IMG/VR virus record: IMGVR_UViG_3300026094_000002
DNA: 64,000 bases
Reading direction: 5' to 3' (one strand)
DNA from: a virus
Taxonomy: Duplodnaviria > Caudoviricetes
Part shown: positions 6,159 to 26,487 of the stretch, in pieces
How positions within the stretch are numbered: the stretch's first letter is position 1
How the letters are laid out: each line of letters begins with the position of its first letter
Notes under the pieces: model-generated
Databases searched by the model: none
What the model saw: the letters and a program-made list of their open reading frames with translations, nothing else
Told to the model about the DNA's origin: nothing
Program-made: the position numbers and the translations under genes

Positions 6159-7528
6159 TGTTGTAACTTACTTATTAAGTCAGTGAGTCTTTCTTTTTTG
6201 GATTCTAAAAATAGTTTGCTGTTGTGTGTAATTTCTGGTTTTAAATCAAGGTATAATTTGTGCAATCGGTGATCTGGCATAGAAGCAATTTCAGAACACA
6301 ATTCAATTACTGCCTCCATTCTTTTTTGGTCATTTTCTATGTCATCGTATGATTCATCAATAACACGATCAAATGTTTTATATCCAAATTTTTTTAATTC
6401 TTTGAGCGTATGCGGCGGTCCTACAACAATAAAAAATTGATTGTGGCATATGGGTTTTATAATTTTTTCTGTTAAACAAGTTCCAATATTGTCTTGCATA
6501 TTAAAATATGTTTCTACAACAAAATTGCAGTAACTTTTTTCAAAATGTTCCTTATTCAAACTTTCAAAAGAATTATGGTCAATATCATTCAATGAGTCTG
6601 CTTTAAATGGTCCATCTGCTAAAAAGTTTTGAATGAGTCTATATTTTGATTCAATGAATTCTCTGTCAAAGGGTTGGCAACTTACTTCATCACTTTCTTT
6701 TCCCTGAGATATTTGGTTGTAACTAAAAAACCCTTGGTCATGTACTCCTGCCCTCCACAATTCTCCCATAAAGATTGCTCGCCAGAGTTTGTGAATTCTT
6801 ACTAATGCAGTAAATTTTTTCTCTCTCTTTTCTTCATGATATGGAACAATATTTTCTTTTTGTTGAGATCTACGATATAATAATTCATCATCAAAAAAGT
6901 AATAAAAATTTTCTATTTTGTCCGCGTATGTATTACCAGAAACGAAATGAATTCTTTCTATATCTATATCATGTTTTTGACACAAGGTTGATAGCGATTT
7001 TTTTATTTCTATAGGGTTATCTGCCTCATCATAAAAAAACAAAACATTTATTTCATTTCTTTTTAATCGGGCATATGCTTCGTTTGAAATCTCAGAAAAA
7101 TAATCAAAATCTGGGTGAAATATATTTAATCCTATAATATAAAAACTATCTATTGGTGCTTCACTTATCTTCCATAATTTGTATGGGACACCTTCATCAT
7201 ACAAATAATCTATTAGTCTAACGTGCTCAGTATTTGGATATGTAGTACTAAACTCTCCCCAACTGTCATACCCATAAACTCCATTATGGCGTGTGCATGT
7301 AGGATATGGAATTTCTCTAAAACCGTGTCTTTCTTTTTGTGACTTTGGATCAAGTTTTACTTTGCGACATATCGTTTTAAAATCATCAGATAAATTTTCA
7401 AACTCTGAAAATGATTTTAATTCTGGCCAATGGGGTTTTTTGTTTGTGTTGTAAATATCTACCCAGTTGTCTTCTAACCATTGTATGTCTAAATTATATA
7501 ATGTAAAATCGCAACACAGATTAATCAT
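6155..7528 (-). CDS. Putative glycosyltransferase (GT10-like motif), paralog 2
   Basis: YCNFVVET...LTEKIIKPICHNQFFIVVG...GYKTF...ESYD. Confidence 0.6.
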   Translation of the reverse strand: MINLCCDFTLYNLDIQWLEDNWVDIYNTNKKPHWPELKSFSEFENLSDDFKTICRKVKLDPKSQKERHGFREIPYPTCTRHNGVYGYDSWGEFSTTYPNTEHVRLIDYLYDEGVPYKLWKISEAPIDSFYIIGLNIFHPDFDYFSEISNEAYARLKRNEINVLFFYDEADNPIEIKKSLSTLCQKHDIDIERIHFVSGNTYADKIENFYYFFDDELLYRRSQQKENIVPYHEEKREKKFTALVRIHKLWRAIFMGELWRAGVHDQGFFSYNQISQGKESDEVSCQPFDREFIESKYRLIQNFLADGPFKADSLNDIDHNSFESLNKEHFEKSYCNFVVETYFNMQDNIGTCLTEKIIKPICHNQFFIVVGPPHTLKELKKFGYKTFDRVIDESYDDIENDQKRMEAVIELCSEIASMPDHRLHKLYLDLKPEITHNSKLFLESKKERLTDLISKLQQ

Positions 7529-18471: not shown

Positions 18472-18494
18472 AGGATATAGGAACGAAGTGTAAA

Positions 18495-18760
18495 ATCAGC
18501 CCGTTCTGTTTACAGGTGGGCCAGACCCAGAGCGACTAAGCAGCTAGTGCGAAATCCTCAGAATAAAAATCGTCATTTGCGACTATTTTAGTTTGCTTCT
18601 ACGATCGGGTAACCCCAATCCTAACGGCTTCAGCATTGCCGATTCTCCACGATGCTTCGTTCTGCTCCGTCGAAACTGTTTCATCCCCATAGTTGGTGGA
18701 GATGCCCGGTACTGCCCCGGGGTCCGCAACAGCGTCCCATCGCTTCATCAAATTCTTAAT
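18495..18760 (-). ncRNA. ssrA: Circularly permuted (two-piece) tmRNA, alphaproteobacterial type
   Basis: The acceptor piece has T-arm CCCGG-GGCAGTA-CCGGG and ends CATCTCCACCA (3' end 18694). A 5-nt spacer ACTAT follows, then the coding piece starts GGGGATG (18688), giving a 7-bp acceptor stem with G3:U70. The tag ORF 18580-18536 reads ANDDFYSEDFALAA*, preceded by AAAATAGTC. Outer boundaries are approximate. Confidence 0.95.
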
Positions 18761-19953
18761 TAAATATATTTATGTTGTTTATTGCCATCATTATGAAGTA
18801 TTTTGTTTGCAATGTCAATAGCAGTGTATGCACTTAGAGTCCAGCCTAAATGCCCGTGGCCTGTATTATACCATATATTGGAATTCTTCTTGCTCTGCTT
18901 GACAATAGGCATCATGTTCGGTGTCATTGGCCGAAGACCTGCCCACGGAACAACACTTTCTGTATTCATTTGTGGAAATAACTCTTCTGTCCAATCAACC
19001 AATGGCTGGACACGATGTTGGAGAATATCGCGGTTATATCCATTAAATTCTGCTGTACCAGCGGCACGGAAGCGAGACTCGCCCAGTCGGGAACTAACAA
19101 TTTTTGTTTCATCATCAAGCAAACTAGTCCATGGACTATTTCCCGGTTCATTAACAGTAATAGAATATCCTTTTACAGGATAGATTGGCAAGTTATCACC
19201 AATAAGTTTAGCAATGTCACGACTTCCAGTGCCAGCACAAATGACTACTGGTCCTTGCTTTTGGAATAGTTCTAATGAATCCTTGTCAACTGTTTCCTGA
19301 ACAAATTGAACGGCATAATGTCTTTCTAAGCAACGTGCAAGGTTTGTACAAAACTTGTGAATATCACCTGTAAAATCTTCTTCTGTGTAAAATCCACCGA
19401 CAATAGAGCGTCTAGAATTTTGTAGTTCCGGCTCAATAGAAAATACTTCTTCTGAGGTAATTTCATTACGAGCAAGCCCAGCCGACCGATAAATTTTGTT
19501 AGTCAGTCTTGCACTCTGTAAATCTTTCTCATTAGAATAGATGTGCATTATGCCTTGTTTTACACAGTCAAAATCAATTCCCTCACGCTCGGCAATATTT
19601 TTGTAAAGATCGTGTGCTTCAATTGCCATCTCGCAAGTATGGTGTGTATTTTCTTTTCTGTTTGGAATGTGACTTAAAAATTTTGCAAACCAAGAATACT
19701 TGTGAAGTGACGGTGCGGGATTGATTTTTAGCGGTGCATCTTTTCGAAACATCCACTTAGCACCTTTTGCTACATTGTGCCAACTATTCCATACTTCTGA
19801 GTTTGATGCACTTAACTGCCCACCATTTGCATATGATGTTCCCATTCCCGAATATCTTTCTTGATCAACCACAAGAACATCGTAACCTGAACGTGCAAGA
19901 TAATATGCTGTAGTAATACCAGTTATTCCAGCACCGATGACCGTAACTGTCAC
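18760..19953 (-). CDS. dadA: D-amino acid dehydrogenase (FAD-dependent, DAO family)
   Basis: GAGITG, TSYANGGQLS, IYPVKGYS, WAGLRPMTP and NTGHGHLGWT motifs. Confidence 0.88.
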   Translation of the reverse strand: MTVTVIGAGITGITTAYYLARSGYDVLVVDQERYSGMGTSYANGGQLSASNSEVWNSWHNVAKGAKWMFRKDAPLKINPAPSLHKYSWFAKFLSHIPNRKENTHHTCEMAIEAHDLYKNIAEREGIDFDCVKQGIMHIYSNEKDLQSARLTNKIYRSAGLARNEITSEEVFSIEPELQNSRRSIVGGFYTEEDFTGDIHKFCTNLARCLERHYAVQFVQETVDKDSLELFQKQGPVVICAGTGSRDIAKLIGDNLPIYPVKGYSITVNEPGNSPWTSLLDDETKIVSSRLGESRFRAAGTAEFNGYNRDILQHRVQPLVDWTEELFPQMNTESVVPWAGLRPMTPNMMPIVKQSKKNSNIWYNTGHGHLGWTLSAYTAIDIANKILHNDGNKQHKYI

Positions 19954-22342: not shown

Positions 22343-22897
22343 TTATTTGCGACAGGTATCTGCTAAACCTTTTAATAGTGCAGAAGATGGTATTTGTCCC
22401 GGGTGGTTTTTCTCTCGTTGCCATTTCCCCTGTATGCCATATGCAAGAGCCTCTAACGTCCCTTTACAATATTTGCTATTATAGAATCCATTTACTTTTT
22501 GCATAAAGTGAACTAACTCATGAACAAGTATGTGACGGGTATCCCAATCTCTTACACTAAAATTCGTATCAAAATACATTGTGTTCTTACCAGCATGATA
22601 AAGGGCAGCAATATTACTGTTGTTTATTTTCTGTAAATCTTTTTTGGTTTGGTTTTTTGGATCTGGGTCAATACCATAGAATCGTATTGCCATTTCTTCT
22701 CGTGATATTTTTTTAATATTTGGTAATTCTTCTCCATTGTAGTCTAAAAATGTTTCAGAACTAATCCATTCAACATGCTTTAGTACAATTTCTTGGCGTT
22801 GTTGTGTATCAACTTGATGAATTAAAAGTGAAAATATTATTACTATTATAGTAAGTGAAATGTATTTTAAAACAATGGAAAACGTATTATTATGCAC
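22343..22897 (-). CDS. Membrane-anchored/secreted HExxH protein (DUF6647-like)
   Basis: N-terminal hydrophobic helix, LVHELVHFMQ and C...E..AY..Q..W motifs; GTG start. Confidence 0.65.
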   Translation of the reverse strand: MHNNTFSIVLKYISLTIIVIIFSLLIHQVDTQQRQEIVLKHVEWISSETFLDYNGEELPNIKKISREEMAIRFYGIDPDPKNQTKKDLQKINNSNIAALYHAGKNTMYFDTNFSVRDWDTRHILVHELVHFMQKVNGFYNSKYCKGTLEALAYGIQGKWQREKNHPGQIPSSALLKGLADTCRK

Positions 22898-22962
22898 CGA
22901 TCCGCTCTCATTTTGAGTATTTAGTGCGTATAAAAAAATTGAACTGAATGCGTAAATAAAAT

Positions 22963-23062
22963 GAGGACATCACATGGGAGCGGACATGTGATGTCCTCGG
23001 GAAAACAACTGCAATCAGGAGCGGTAATTGCAGTTGGCGTTGACTACCGGCTCGGTAATCAG
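22963..23062. ncRNA. Putative structured small RNA: three hairpins, two with GGAGCGG loops
   Basis: Perfect 14-bp stem (22963-22976/22985-22998) and 10-bp stem (23006-23015/23027-23036), plus a third imperfect stem at 23041-23061. Plus-strand TAAATA at 22953-22958. Strand not established. Confidence 0.55.
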
Positions 23063-23077
23063 ATGCTCGTTTTTATT

Positions 23078-23290
23078 TTAACTAAAATATTTGTTTAACA
23101 TCTCTAGTTTGTCATCGTAATCGGCAATTTCAGCCAATTCTTTTTCAATCTCTTCTAAGATATCACCAGAACCCTCGCCAGTACCAACTGGATTTTCTAA
23201 CAGAACTTCTACATTAGCACGGTGCTTTTCAATGTGTCCGACAAAGTGGGCTTCAGCAGATTTGAAAATTGTATCTCTGAGATTTTTCAT
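23078..23290 (-). CDS. Hypothetical phage protein
   Basis: 70-aa helical ORF (HIEKHRANVEVLLENPVG); TAAATA upstream. Confidence 0.75.
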   Translation of the reverse strand: MKNLRDTIFKSAEAHFVGHIEKHRANVEVLLENPVGTGEGSGDILEEIEKELAEIADYDDKLEMLNKYFS

Positions 23291-23339
23291 TAATAATAAC
23301 CTATGTTTTCTAAGAGGTATTTAGATAATATAAACCTAA

Positions 23340-24050
23340 TTATAATAATTTTATGAGTGAATTTACTGTTTTGTCTAAATTGCCAAAATTAAAAACGTGT
23401 ATATCAAATTGATTATCCAACTTCTTAACGAATTTGGCTGTATTGAAACCAGAACAAGAAAGATATTTGACTCCAACAACATTAGGAATTATTTCTCGGG
23501 TAGTACGAGCAATACCACAGAGTTTAATGAATTTCAACAATTCTTTTGCAGTACAATTGCTTGGGACACCAACGATTGTTTTTTGATCAAATTGTTTTAA
23601 CAGAGAAAGATTCAAACAAATCTGTGTAATGCCACGGGCAAACTTGGTATATTTGGTTTCGGTTACAGAATCATGCGTTTCGTGTTGAGGATACACTCCA
23701 CATAAAAAATTAAAACCATATTCTTTATCTTTGAGGTCTTTAAGCAAATCAAAGGCATTTCCATAACAGTTTCCATATTTTCTACTGCCCCCAATGATTA
23801 AAACATCTTTAACCCCAAGGTCAACAAATCGATCACAGTTGTCATATAATTCTTTTTTGTTTTTTAGATTGCGAGCGGCAATATGTGGGATAATTTTTAT
23901 TCTTGAATTCTGTCGGCGAAGATTAGAAATAGCGGTTACTGTCTCAGAGAGTCGTGTTCCCGGAAGGTGAGTAACACTTACAGAGTCAACATTTGAGAGG
24001 ACATTTTGGGATAGTTTTTGTTTTGGCGTTTGTTCAACACTTATTTTCAC
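23340..24050 (-). CDS. Short methylenetetrahydrofolate reductase-like (MetF-like) TIM-barrel protein
   Basis: SVTHLPG, IPHIAARNL, DVLIIGG, CGVYP and ITQ motifs align with the MTHFR FAD-binding barrel. Confidence 0.65.
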   Translation of the reverse strand: MKISVEQTPKQKLSQNVLSNVDSVSVTHLPGTRLSETVTAISNLRRQNSRIKIIPHIAARNLKNKKELYDNCDRFVDLGVKDVLIIGGSRKYGNCYGNAFDLLKDLKDKEYGFNFLCGVYPQHETHDSVTETKYTKFARGITQICLNLSLLKQFDQKTIVGVPSNCTAKELLKFIKLCGIARTTREIIPNVVGVKYLSCSGFNTAKFVKKLDNQFDIHVFNFGNLDKTVNSLIKLL

Positions 24051-24837: not shown

Positions 24838-25044
24838 TTAGAATTTGCCACCATTCAATTCTATTTTTTCAATAGTAGGTTCTGTTTTATTTTGGGATTC
24901 TTTGAGAGTATCTAATGATAACAAAAGTTTAGTAATTTCAGAGTGTAATGCCTTTGCTTCAGCCACGGACATCGTAAAATCACGTGAGTTAGAAGATACT
25001 CCCCTAACTCTATCAACAAAGCGATATATTGCTGGATAACTCAT
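24838..25044 (-). CDS. Hypothetical protein
   Basis: 68-aa ORF coupled to the upstream gene (ATGA overlap). Confidence 0.7.
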   Translation of the reverse strand: MSYPAIYRFVDRVRGVSSNSRDFTMSVAEAKALHSEITKLLLSLDTLKESQNKTEPTIEKIELNGGKF

Positions 25045-25496
25045 TTGAACACAAAATCCTCTGGATCTTTTGCCGGTCCAAAATAATCGTAACGCTCAAG
25101 TAGTATAAGTTTTGGACAGAAAACCAATTCCCAATCACGATGCTGTTTTAATTGAAAATACCCAGCGGCATACCATGACTTGCTTTCAGGAGATTTAGTA
25201 AATAATGCCATACGATTTTTCACATCGTATACAGGATTATAAACTGTTGCATCTGCTGGAAACCCATATACAGAATTTTTAGAATGTGTTGGGATAACCT
25301 GTGTGTTAAGTTCATCAAACTCAAGCCCATCTACTTTCTTTATTTCTTCAAGGTTTGTACCTAAAGAATGAACTTGTCCATTAATTCTTAGTGAATAACT
25401 GCCATCTTCGTCAGCAGTTAGTTCGCCTACTTTTTGATTTTGCTCCTTTAGAATCCAAAATTCATCGGATATGACTGGTGTTGCTTTTATCATCAA
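25041..25496 (-). CDS. Hypothetical protein
   Basis: 151-aa ORF in an operon. Confidence 0.7.
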   Translation of the reverse strand: MMIKATPVISDEFWILKEQNQKVGELTADEDGSYSLRINGQVHSLGTNLEEIKKVDGLEFDELNTQVIPTHSKNSVYGFPADATVYNPVYDVKNRMALFTKSPESKSWYAAGYFQLKQHRDWELVFCPKLILLERYDYFGPAKDPEDFVFK

Positions 25497-26487
25497 TTGC
25501 TCCTTGATATGTTTTATTTAACCATTCTGAAAGTTGTGTAGCCATTTCTGATAATCTAATAAGTTCATGGCGACCACAAAACTTCATAAACCTTATGCCA
25601 ACCTGTGTTACATCTTTCTTGGATACTTGTTCGCTGATTGCACTGTCAACCGCTTGTTTAATTTCATCAGGTTGTGCCCGTAAATCAATTAAAGTACGGT
25701 TTCTCTCGTAATCATCTAACACCCTGTGTTCCACGCCTTCGTGGTCAGTCCAGCGTTGTAACATCAAGTTGTTCCAAGAAAACCCTTTCGCCAGCCTGTC
25801 ATCAAATGCTTCAATTAAACCGGTTTTGTTTTTAGTTCCTTTTTTGCGGACTCCGGGATATGCAGAGAATACATTATCTGTTGCATCACCCCGCACACAC
25901 TTCTCAAACAGCAACCATTCTGGGTCAGGGACTTCCTTCGGCTCGCCGGTCTTCTTTTCTTTGACAGGATTATCCTTATCGTCAAGAATACCCTTGGTAG
26001 TAATTAGGTGTCCCATAACTCCATTATATTGCTGTACATTATTAGCAAGGAGTTGAACAAAGTCAGTATCGCTCGATATGATTATGTGTTGGTCATCGGG
26101 ATGTAAATCCACCCAACGTGCTATAATATCGTCGGCTTCAGCACGTTCATGCTTTATTACCGAACAGTTGGTCTGCTCCTTAAGGTACTTAGTGAGTTCT
26201 TCAAAGGTTTCCCAAAAAACTTTTTCTTCCTCTTGTTCTCGCTCACTCAATGCTGCTCGTGCATCAGTACGATTTCTCTTGTATCGTGGATAAACATCTT
26301 TACGCCAACTGCGTCCTTCTAAACAAAATACTACATGGTCTGCACCAAACTTTTTGTACATTCTGTTTATAGAACTAAGAGTGACGTGCATTGCATATCC
26401 AACTTTTTCATGTGTATCTGCCGCCCGAAATGCAGCGTGTCGTGCACGGAAAAATGTATTAGCCGTGTCTACCAATAGATAACGCAT
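25462..26487 (-). CDS. rnh: 5'-3' exonuclease / T4 RNase H-like (FEN/PIN fold)
   Basis: LLVDTANTFFR, YKRNR, EADDII, SSDTDFVQL and GDATDNV motifs. Confidence 0.9.
   Translation of the reverse strand: MRYLLVDTANTFFRARHAAFRAADTHEKVGYAMHVTLSSINRMYKKFGADHVVFCLEGRSWRKDVYPRYKRNRTDARAALSEREQEEEKVFWETFEELTKYLKEQTNCSVIKHERAEADDIIARWVDLHPDDQHIIISSDTDFVQLLANNVQQYNGVMGHLITTKGILDDKDNPVKEKKTGEPKEVPDPEWLLFEKCVRGDATDNVFSAYPGVRKKGTKNKTGLIEAFDDRLAKGFSWNNLMLQRWTDHEGVEHRVLDDYERNRTLIDLRAQPDEIKQAVDSAISEQVSKKDVTQVGIRFMKFCGRHELIRLSEMATQLSEWLNKTYQGAIDDKSNTSHIR

What the first reader, a model, noticed from the sequence alone, without database searches (positions are those of the whole stretch)
22897..23079. Candidate sponge-like small RNA with GGAGCGG loops that mirror the leader of the divergent gene
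Seen: back-to-back TAAATA motifs (minus 22918-22923, plus 22953-22958). The plus one sits just before a perfect 14-bp hairpin (loop GGAGCGGA), a 10-bp hairpin (loop CAGGAGCGGTA), a third hairpin and a T-run. The divergent mRNA has GAGCGGA 3 nt before its GTG start. Established: GGA motifs in hairpin loops are how CsrB/RsmZ RNAs titrate CsrA/RsmA, and anti-SD loop sRNAs occur in Alphaproteobacteria. Inference: either a plus-strand decoy RNA that titrates an RNA-binding repressor, or a minus-strand RNA whose UCCGCUC loops pair with the neighbouring initiation region. The first hairpin could also act as a minus-strand terminator.
Basis: partly seen in the sequence, partly recalled or inferred. 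Interest (0 to 1): 0.62.

Follow-up and report, generated by a model that had tools for sequence, protein, structure and literature searches.

The report
Phage small RNA matching host tRNA-Asp
A giant salt-pond phage carries a conserved, uncatalogued three-hairpin RNA of about 115 bases, on the strand opposite to the CsrA-sponge reading proposed first; its exposed loops and one stem arm are complementary to the first 20 bases of the likely host's only aspartate tRNA, so it may bind that tRNA, or else block ribosome-binding sites, but neither is tested.

Summary
The hairpins are real and conserved. Fifteen homologous sequences come from a narrow clade of jumbo phages, probably of Spiribacter (CoxA 87%). 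Compensatory changes occur in 21 of 34 pairs, and Rfam 15 has no match.

The RNA lies on the MINUS strand (about 23068 to 22953). G-U wobbles favour minus in 14 columns against 3. The only terminator at the element is on minus. The plus TAAATA is the complement of that terminator's U-tail and is mostly not conserved. The CsrA sponge is therefore unlikely. The neighbour's GAGCGGA leader is not conserved, and that gene is often absent.

The loops read YYGCUCC. The middle loop plus its 5' arm pairs with nt 1-20 of host tRNA-Asp(GUC) at 18-20 of 20 positions in eight variants. It is the best of 45 tRNAs, but I saw the match before testing it (shuffle p 0.0005-0.04). Net binding energy is weak, and the most diverged homolog has lost this loop.

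Best reading: an anti-tRNA-Asp sRNA (0.4). Close rival: an anti-Shine-Dalgarno sRNA (0.33). Expression is untested. The scan has noted similar phage anti-SD and anti-tRNA RNAs on other DNA.

The parts
22953..23068 (-). Three-hairpin small RNA, about 115 nt, from the conserved 5' GAGCA motif to the U-tail (the 5' end is inferred, not mapped)
   Evidence: Alignment and covariation; covariance-model hit at 22949-23075 minus; strand test
23064..23068 (-). Conserved 5' motif GAGCA; can close hairpin A through GC(A)/(Y)GC, or pair with a GCUC loop as a possible pseudoknot
   Evidence: Present in all homologs including L714, with one G-to-A change in L415; its pairing is inference
23041..23061 (-). 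Hairpin A (5'); stem UGAUURCC/GGYAAUCA, variable loop
   Evidence: 96% of cells paired, 3 of 9 pairs with two-sided change
23006..23036 (-). Hairpin B; 12-bp stem, 7-nt loop YYGCUCC at 23018-23024
   Evidence: 99% of cells paired, 6 of 12 pairs with two-sided change; loop predicted about 100% unpaired; loop lost in L714
23018..23038 (-). Stretch antisense to nt 1-20 of host tRNA-Asp(GUC), with one bulged base (loop plus 5' arm of hairpin B); in this phage broken pairing extends to about tRNA nt 31
22999..23005 (-). Single-stranded pyrimidine linker (UUUUCCC here; always C-rich)
22963..22998 (-). Hairpin C, an intrinsic terminator stem with loop NYYGCUCC at 22977-22984
   Evidence: 12 of 13 pairs with two-sided change while the loop stays; terminator scan; loop kept in L714
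22953..22962 (-).
   Evidence: U5-U7 in homologs
23078..23290 (-). 70-aa two-helix protein of unknown function (PHROG 1811); the RNA begins about 10 nt after its stop codon in every homolog
   Evidence: distant relatives (44-68% identity) lack the RNA there
23318..23323 (-). TAAATA late promoter that most likely drives the 70-aa ORF plus the RNA
   Evidence: Conserved upstream of the ORF in the homologs (TAAGTA in L409); motif statistics
22918..22923 (-). Separate TAAATA late promoter of the downstream DUF6647 gene (22343-22897); not part of the RNA

Best explanation
The element is a trans-acting, base-pairing small RNA on the minus strand. It is most likely made as the 3' part of a late transcript (TAAATA 23318, then the 70-aa ORF, then the RNA), ends at its own intrinsic terminator (hairpin C plus U-tail), and is probably released or stabilised by processing. 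It holds out two 7-nt loops, YYGCUCC, whose variants all pair with one sequence, GGAGCGG. That sequence is exactly nt 1-7, the acceptor 5' strand, of the likely host's single tRNA-Asp(GUC). Proposed mechanism: a loop seeds on the free 5' end of tRNA-Asp. The likely substrate is a nascent precursor or a 5' fragment rather than the folded tRNA. Hairpin B then unzips and its 5' arm pairs on through the D arm to nt 20, possibly helped by host Hfq. The result is sequestration of tRNA-Asp precursor or fragments late in infection. Shown by computation: structure, conservation, strand, terminator and complementarity. Inferred: transcription, 5' end, host, binding and benefit to the phage.
For: Structure and strand: 98% of cells paired and 21 of 34 pairs with two-sided change; G-U on minus in 14 columns against 3 favouring plus, p=0.006; terminator at the element only on minus. 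Host: nearest cellular CoxA is Spiribacter at 87%; Spiribacter has hfq and as a rule one tRNA-Asp starting GGAGCGGUAGUUCAG, the same across the order. Pairing: 18-20 of 20 positions in one register in eight variants, 19-20 if tRNA nt 16 is U. Seven of the eight variable columns change only in wobble-compatible ways, and all five positions where a transition would break pairing are invariant (p=0.05). tRNA-Asp is the best of 45 tRNAs; column shuffles reach the score 1/2000 with register fixed at nt 1, and 5/150 or 24-42/1000 in any register. The hairpin B arm is much more conserved than the hairpin C stem. No comparable partner was found in the 194-kb phage record.
Against: The match was found by eye and tested afterwards, and the homologs share ancestry, so it counts as one coincidence. 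Genome-wide, tRNA-Asp ranks 24th-35th of 154,130 windows, and 3rd only with a CAGUUGG D-loop, which the Spiribacter genomes searched do not have. Net binding after unfolding is weak: about -1 to -6 kcal/mol with full tRNA. It is not in the top four tRNA 5' fragments unless the D-loop is CAGUUGG. The most diverged homolog, L714, fetched afterwards as a test, has lost loop B and keeps only an 8-bp match through loop C. No tRNA-Asp was found in the phage record, which is 56% complete. Asp is about 7% of phage residues, so plain destruction of host tRNA-Asp would hurt the phage. There are no expression data.
Confidence: 0.4

Rival explanations
1. The same minus-strand RNA works as a multi-target anti-Shine-Dalgarno sRNA, like cuckoo/NfeR1 or AbcR. 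The GCUCC(U) loops and the C-rich linker pair with GGAG(C) ribosome-binding sites and dampen translation, mostly of host messages, while many phage late messages are leaderless. The tRNA match is then an accident, or a trace of origin from an inverted tRNA gene.
For: CUCC in exposed loops on freely varying stems, plus a UUCCC linker, is the design of ar14 and AbcR RNAs (PMC4615179; PMC8844928). GGAGC lies in the SD zone of 107 of 1767 host genes but 2 of 216 phage genes. 28 phage genes have TAAATA 5-8 nt before the start. The loop C motif survives in L714 without the long arm.
Against: The loop is not the anti-SD CCUCC: an invariant G replaces a C, and GGAGC is a minority SD. The host-phage difference is explained by base composition, since GGAGC makes up 33% of GGAG in the control zone and 22% in the SD zone. 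It does not explain the sequence constraint on the 5' arm of hairpin B. No conserved mRNA target was found.
Confidence: 0.33
2. The RNA binds a protein rather than an RNA. The loops (identical to the tRNA-Asp 3' acceptor strand, CCGCUCC) or the conserved 5' domain act as a decoy or scaffold, for example for a host nuclease or toxin, or for the 70-aa protein.
For: GAGCA, hairpin A and loop C are what every homolog keeps, L714 included. The 9 nt GUCCGCUCC of hairpin C equal the tRNA-Asp 3' strand. The RNA always follows the 70-aa ORF.
Against: C/U interchange at two loop positions fits pairing with G better than protein read-out. The 70-aa protein is a plain helical hairpin with no significant structural match and occurs widely without the RNA.
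Confidence: 0.1
3. No separate RNA exists. The hairpins are a terminator plus a stabilising 3' UTR of the 70-aa ORF mRNA.
For: Hairpin C with its U-tail is a textbook terminator. No conserved dedicated promoter was found (one weak sigma-70 match at 23115-23086).
Against: Terminators do not keep a 7-nt loop while 12 of 13 stem pairs turn over, nor repeat it in a second hairpin. A 3' UTR could still pair in trans without being released.
Confidence: 0.07
4. One reading: a plus-strand late RNA whose GGA loops titrate host CsrA/RsmA.
For: Spiribacter has csrA. GGA is present on plus in both loops and the linker, often as CAGGA. TAAATA plus 5 nt would start at the hairpin base in this phage and about there in L409.
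Against: On plus, 14 stem columns would carry C-A mismatches. There is no conserved plus terminator, and the promoter is not kept in most lineages. Only 2-3 GGA sites are present, there is no Rfam CsrB/Rsm match, and CsrA does not need the invariant GC after GGA (established knowledge).
Confidence: 0.05
5. A dedicated switch: the loops pair with the GAGCGGA leader of the neighbouring DUF6647 gene.
For: 7 bp with loop C in this phage, the second-best of 252 phage start regions; 5-6 bp in L140 and L409.
Against: The leader differs in L121 and L410, and the gene is absent behind the RNA in three lineages. It may be one incidental target here.
Confidence: 0.05

Closest known systems
Cuckoo / ar14 / CcsR1-4 / NfeR1 sRNAs of Alphaproteobacteria (PMC4615179)
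   Same: Adjacent hairpins with variable stems and a repeated C-rich loop; CcsR RNAs are co-transcribed behind a small ORF and followed by a terminator.
   Different: The loop is YYGCUCC, not CCUCCUCCC. The first hairpin has no motif. The ORF is PHROG 1811, not DUF1127. It sits in a phage of a probable gammaproteobacterium, and there is no Rfam match.
AbcR1/AbcR2 (ar15) of rhizobia and Brucella (PMC8844928)
   Same: About 110-120 nt with three stem-loops, a CUCC loop motif plus a UUCCC single-stranded motif between hairpins.
   Different: Different motifs and order, a seed also on the terminator loop, no detectable sequence match, and not found in the host genomes searched.
PAK_P3 sRNA2 of a Pseudomonas phage (PMC4933390)
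   Same: A late, about 100-nt RNA of a virulent phage with a stretch that matches host tRNAs; proposed to act on translation, untested.
   Different: An 11-nt match to the T-loop of eight tRNA sites, against 20 nt antisense to the acceptor and D arm of one tRNA here; unrelated sequence.
C4 antisense RNA of phages P1/P7, and ColE1 RNAI (from my own knowledge)
   Same: Three-stem RNAs that seed pairing through loops and then extend it.
   Different: Their targets are the phage's or plasmid's own RNAs; no Rfam C4 or RNAI match; no such partner found in this phage record.
CsrB/CsrC, RsmY/RsmZ
   Same: GGA in loops, but only when the opposite strand is read.
   Different: Wrong strand by covariation and terminator; few sites; long stable stems.

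Membership tests
CsrB/RsmZ-type CsrA sponges | GGA motifs on the transcribed strand | tested here: not met
   The strand under structural selection is minus, 14:3; there the loops read GCUCC
CsrB/RsmZ-type CsrA sponges | Own promoter and terminator on that strand, conserved | tested here: not met
   Plus TAAATA in place only in the window phage and L409; no plus terminator at hairpin A
CsrB/RsmZ-type CsrA sponges | CsrA present in host or phage | tested here: met
   5 of 5 Spiribacter genomes; not found in the phage record
CsrB/RsmZ-type CsrA sponges | Match to an Rfam Csr/Rsm model | tested here: not met
Cuckoo/ar14 | CCUCCUCCC in each hairpin loop | tested here: not met
   Loops are YYGCUCC, and hairpin A has none
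Cuckoo/ar14 | 2-4 adjacent hairpins with variable stems | tested here: met
AbcR/ar15 | aSD1 CUCCUCCC in the 5' hairpin loop and aSD2 UUCCCCUC between stem-loops; Rfam match | tested here: not met
   Only a UUCCC-like linker; no Rfam hit
Trans-acting base-pairing sRNA (general class) | Conserved exposed seed and 3' intrinsic terminator with U-tail | tested here: met
Trans-acting base-pairing sRNA (general class) | Discrete transcript, Hfq binding and target regulation | not testable with these tools
RNA antisense to a host tRNA (no established family) | Conserved complementarity to one host tRNA beyond chance | tested here: inconclusive
   p 0.0005-0.04 by shuffle and best of 45 tRNAs, but post hoc, weak in net energy and partly lost in L714
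tRNA gene remnant or attachment site | Cloverleaf, or exact DNA identity to a host tRNA | tested here: not met
   No ARAGORN or RF00005 hit here; the match always carries a bulged base and wobble-type changes

The most novel reading that the evidence does not exclude
A lytic jumbo phage makes a dedicated anti-tRNA RNA. Its loops copy the 3' acceptor strand of host tRNA-Asp and capture the tRNA's 5' strand and D arm, to block maturation of tRNA-Asp or to soak up 5' tRNA-Asp fragments. Those fragments themselves begin with an SD-like GGAG and could be products of a host defence nuclease.
Probability: 0.36. Interest if true: 0.85.

Novelty: new variant of a known kind. Interest (0 to 1): 0.6.

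Why it matters
Few small RNAs of lytic phages have a known target, and the review I searched lists mainly mRNA or sRNA targets (PMC12197685). I found no tested case of a phage RNA that base-pairs with a host tRNA. tRNAs are a main battleground of phage defence, fought so far with nucleases, ligases and spare tRNA genes, so an antisense RNA would be a different weapon. The Spiribacter tRNA-Asp 5' end matches the E. coli one as I recall it, so the idea could be tested at once in vitro or in a laboratory strain. If the RNA is only an anti-SD regulator, it is still a new, well-supported RNA family, but of a kind this scan has already seen several times.

Tried and rejected
Rfam at gathering score and at E up to 10: no relevant family.

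Loose GGAGCGG pattern scans of viral and metagenome contigs gave only chance hits besides the known homologs. GTDB pattern scan: none. Cultured phages match only the 70-aa ORF, not the RNA.

The covariance model found nothing in distant phage relatives, in 15 marine alpha/SAR86 genomes (the weak L519 hit is coding DNA) or in 26 Spiribacter-order genomes (only part of the candidates were scored).

I first assumed an alphaproteobacterial host from the two-piece tmRNA and DadA hits; those genomes showed no csrA or hfq.

Whole-RNA duplex energies and my first scoring were too lax to discriminate. The top genome-wide host hit lies antisense to a coding sequence. The best phage start-region hit is a curlin-like gene and not obviously meaningful. 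Two tRNA patterns were mistyped and show nothing.

The fold search of the 70-aa protein had no significant match. The supplement of the 2023 catalogue of candidate viral RNAs (PMC10690425) is not held, so I could not check whether the motif is listed there.

Full report
CONTEXT. The window is part of a 194.5-kb virus record judged 56% complete. It is a jumbo phage with a two-piece tmRNA, six canonical tRNAs, a bS21-like protein, curli-like genes and CoxA. TAAATA is its late promoter motif: it is depleted overall, sits before many genes, and has ATG exactly 5 nt downstream 18 times against 1-7 at other spacings, so many late mRNAs are probably leaderless. The nearest cellular CoxA proteins are from Spiribacter at 87%, so a halophilic gammaproteobacterial host is likely but not proven; DadA and the tmRNA type point elsewhere.

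OBSERVATION. Folding is well beyond shuffles on both strands. Rfam has no match.

CONSERVATION. Following the upstream 70-aa ORF (23078-23290, minus) gave homologs in phages whose ORF is about 80-90% identical. In the 14-sequence alignment, 98% of cells pair and 21 of 34 pairs show two-sided changes; sliding the partners destroys this (that alignment was fitted to the model, but RNAalifold on the plain MAFFT alignment also gave 21 of 34). The terminator stem changes at 12 of 13 pairs while its loop keeps GCUCC. More distant phages with the same ORF lack the RNA there, and host genomes gave no hit. It is a real, clade-restricted RNA family.

STRAND. Single-sided stem changes give G-U on the minus strand in 14 columns; three columns favour plus (p=0.006). 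A U-tail follows the last hairpin on minus in every homolog, and the only terminator called at the element is on minus. The plus T-run is not conserved. The plus TAAATA is the complement of the U-tail and is exactly in place only here and in L409. So the RNA reads 5' GAGCA, hairpin A, hairpin B (loop YYGCUCC), pyrimidine linker, hairpin C (loop NYYGCUCC), U-tail. It starts about 10 nt behind the ORF stop, and the ORF's late promoter at 23318 is conserved. A 3'-UTR origin is inferred. This removes the CsrA sponge as main reading, although the host has csrA and hfq.

THE NEIGHBOUR'S LEADER. GAGCGGA gives a 7-bp match in this phage, the second-best among phage starts. It is not conserved, and the DUF6647 gene is absent behind the RNA in three lineages. 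It is at most an incidental target.

WHAT THE LOOPS MATCH. The two variable loop positions are always C or U, so every variant pairs with GGAGCGG. Spiribacter's single tRNA-Asp(GUC) begins with exactly these seven bases, and its acceptor 3' strand is CCGCUCC, the loop itself. The 5' arm of hairpin B continues the match: with one bulged base, 18-20 of 20 positions pair with tRNA nt 1-20 in eight variants. Seven of the eight variable columns change only in wobble-compatible ways, one variant has a U-U mismatch, and the five positions intolerant of a transition are invariant (p=0.05). tRNA-Asp is the best of 45 host tRNAs. Shuffles match it 1 in 2000 times with the register fixed at nt 1, and 2-4 in 100 in any register.

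WEAKNESSES OF THE tRNA MATCH. I saw the match before testing it, and related sequences count once. Genome-wide it ranks 24th-35th of 154,130 windows, and 3rd with a CAGUUGG D-loop found in other members of the order but not in the Spiribacter genomes searched. Net binding is weak. The most diverged homolog, L714 (43 bits), has lost loop B and keeps only an 8-bp match through loop C. No phage tRNA-Asp was seen in the partial record, and Asp is about 7% of phage residues, so simple shut-off of this tRNA would be costly. A nascent precursor or a 5' fragment is the more plausible substrate (inference).

ANTI-SD RIVAL. The layout recalls cuckoo/ar14 and AbcR RNAs (PMC4615179; PMC8844928). GGAGC occurs in the SD zone of 107 of 1767 host genes and 2 of 216 phage genes, which would spare the phage. 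Base composition explains that contrast, the invariant G departs from the anti-SD, and the arm constraint stays unexplained. The two readings are not exclusive.

COMPARISON AND NOVELTY. It works like a loop-seeded antisense sRNA but fails membership of CsrB/RsmZ, ar14 and AbcR. The nearest precedent for a tRNA-directed phage RNA is PAK_P3 sRNA2, which is untested (PMC4933390). Annealing of folded tRNAs to complementary RNA has been reported in E. coli (10.64898/2026.09.02.748885). Earlier unchecked notes of this scan describe several phage anti-SD RNAs and one anti-tRNA-Val RNA on other DNA; they are leads, not support.

VERDICT. A real, uncatalogued minus-strand RNA (about 0.9), probably acting by base pairing (about 0.75). 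Target tRNA-Asp 0.4, ribosome-binding sites 0.33, plus-strand CsrA sponge 0.05. New variant of a known kind; interest 0.6.

Noticed in passing
window 22867-22911 (-): An ATG 6 nt after the 22918 TAAATA opens a 14-codon out-of-frame ORF that overlaps the GTG start of the DUF6647 gene; the GAGCGGA lies inside it. It is a possible leaderless uORF. Not seen in diverged relatives.
   Followed up: partly
window 25515-25520 (-) and start of ORF 25041-25496: A late promoter inside the 5'-3' exonuclease gene with the leader AAGGAGCAAUUGAUG; L121 keeps the same overlapping peptide. It is one of only 2-3 phage GGAGC ribosome-binding sites and would give about 9 bp with loop B variants that read AUUGCUCCU.
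   Followed up: partly
G000:C1 about 6540-6570 (L533): The late leader of an Hsp20-like gene, right behind a bS21-like gene, starts with a hairpin that shares 11 nt (CAACGCCAACU) with the RNA; probably chance.
   Followed up: no
G000:C1 about 91960-91974: A PhoH-like coding sequence has 14 nt complementary to the A-B junction of the RNA; near chance level and not loop-based.
   Followed up: partly
L530 (G000:C1:22000-27000): A curli-like operon (CsgF/CsgG-like, curlin repeat and FecR-like genes, judged from the translations) under a TAAATA promoter.
   Followed up: no
window 23340-24050 (-): A short MTHFR-like protein (weak PF02219) with a phage-type family of 35-57% relatives; next to or one gene before the 70-aa ORF in the homologs.
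   Followed up: partly
window 18494-18801 (-): Permuted two-piece tmRNA (tag ANDDFYSEDFALAA) although the likely host has a one-piece tmRNA.
   Followed up: no
L412-L416, downstream of the RNA: Where DUF6647 is missing, a sigma-70-like TTGACA-17-TACAGT element precedes the dCMP deaminase gene.
   Followed up: no
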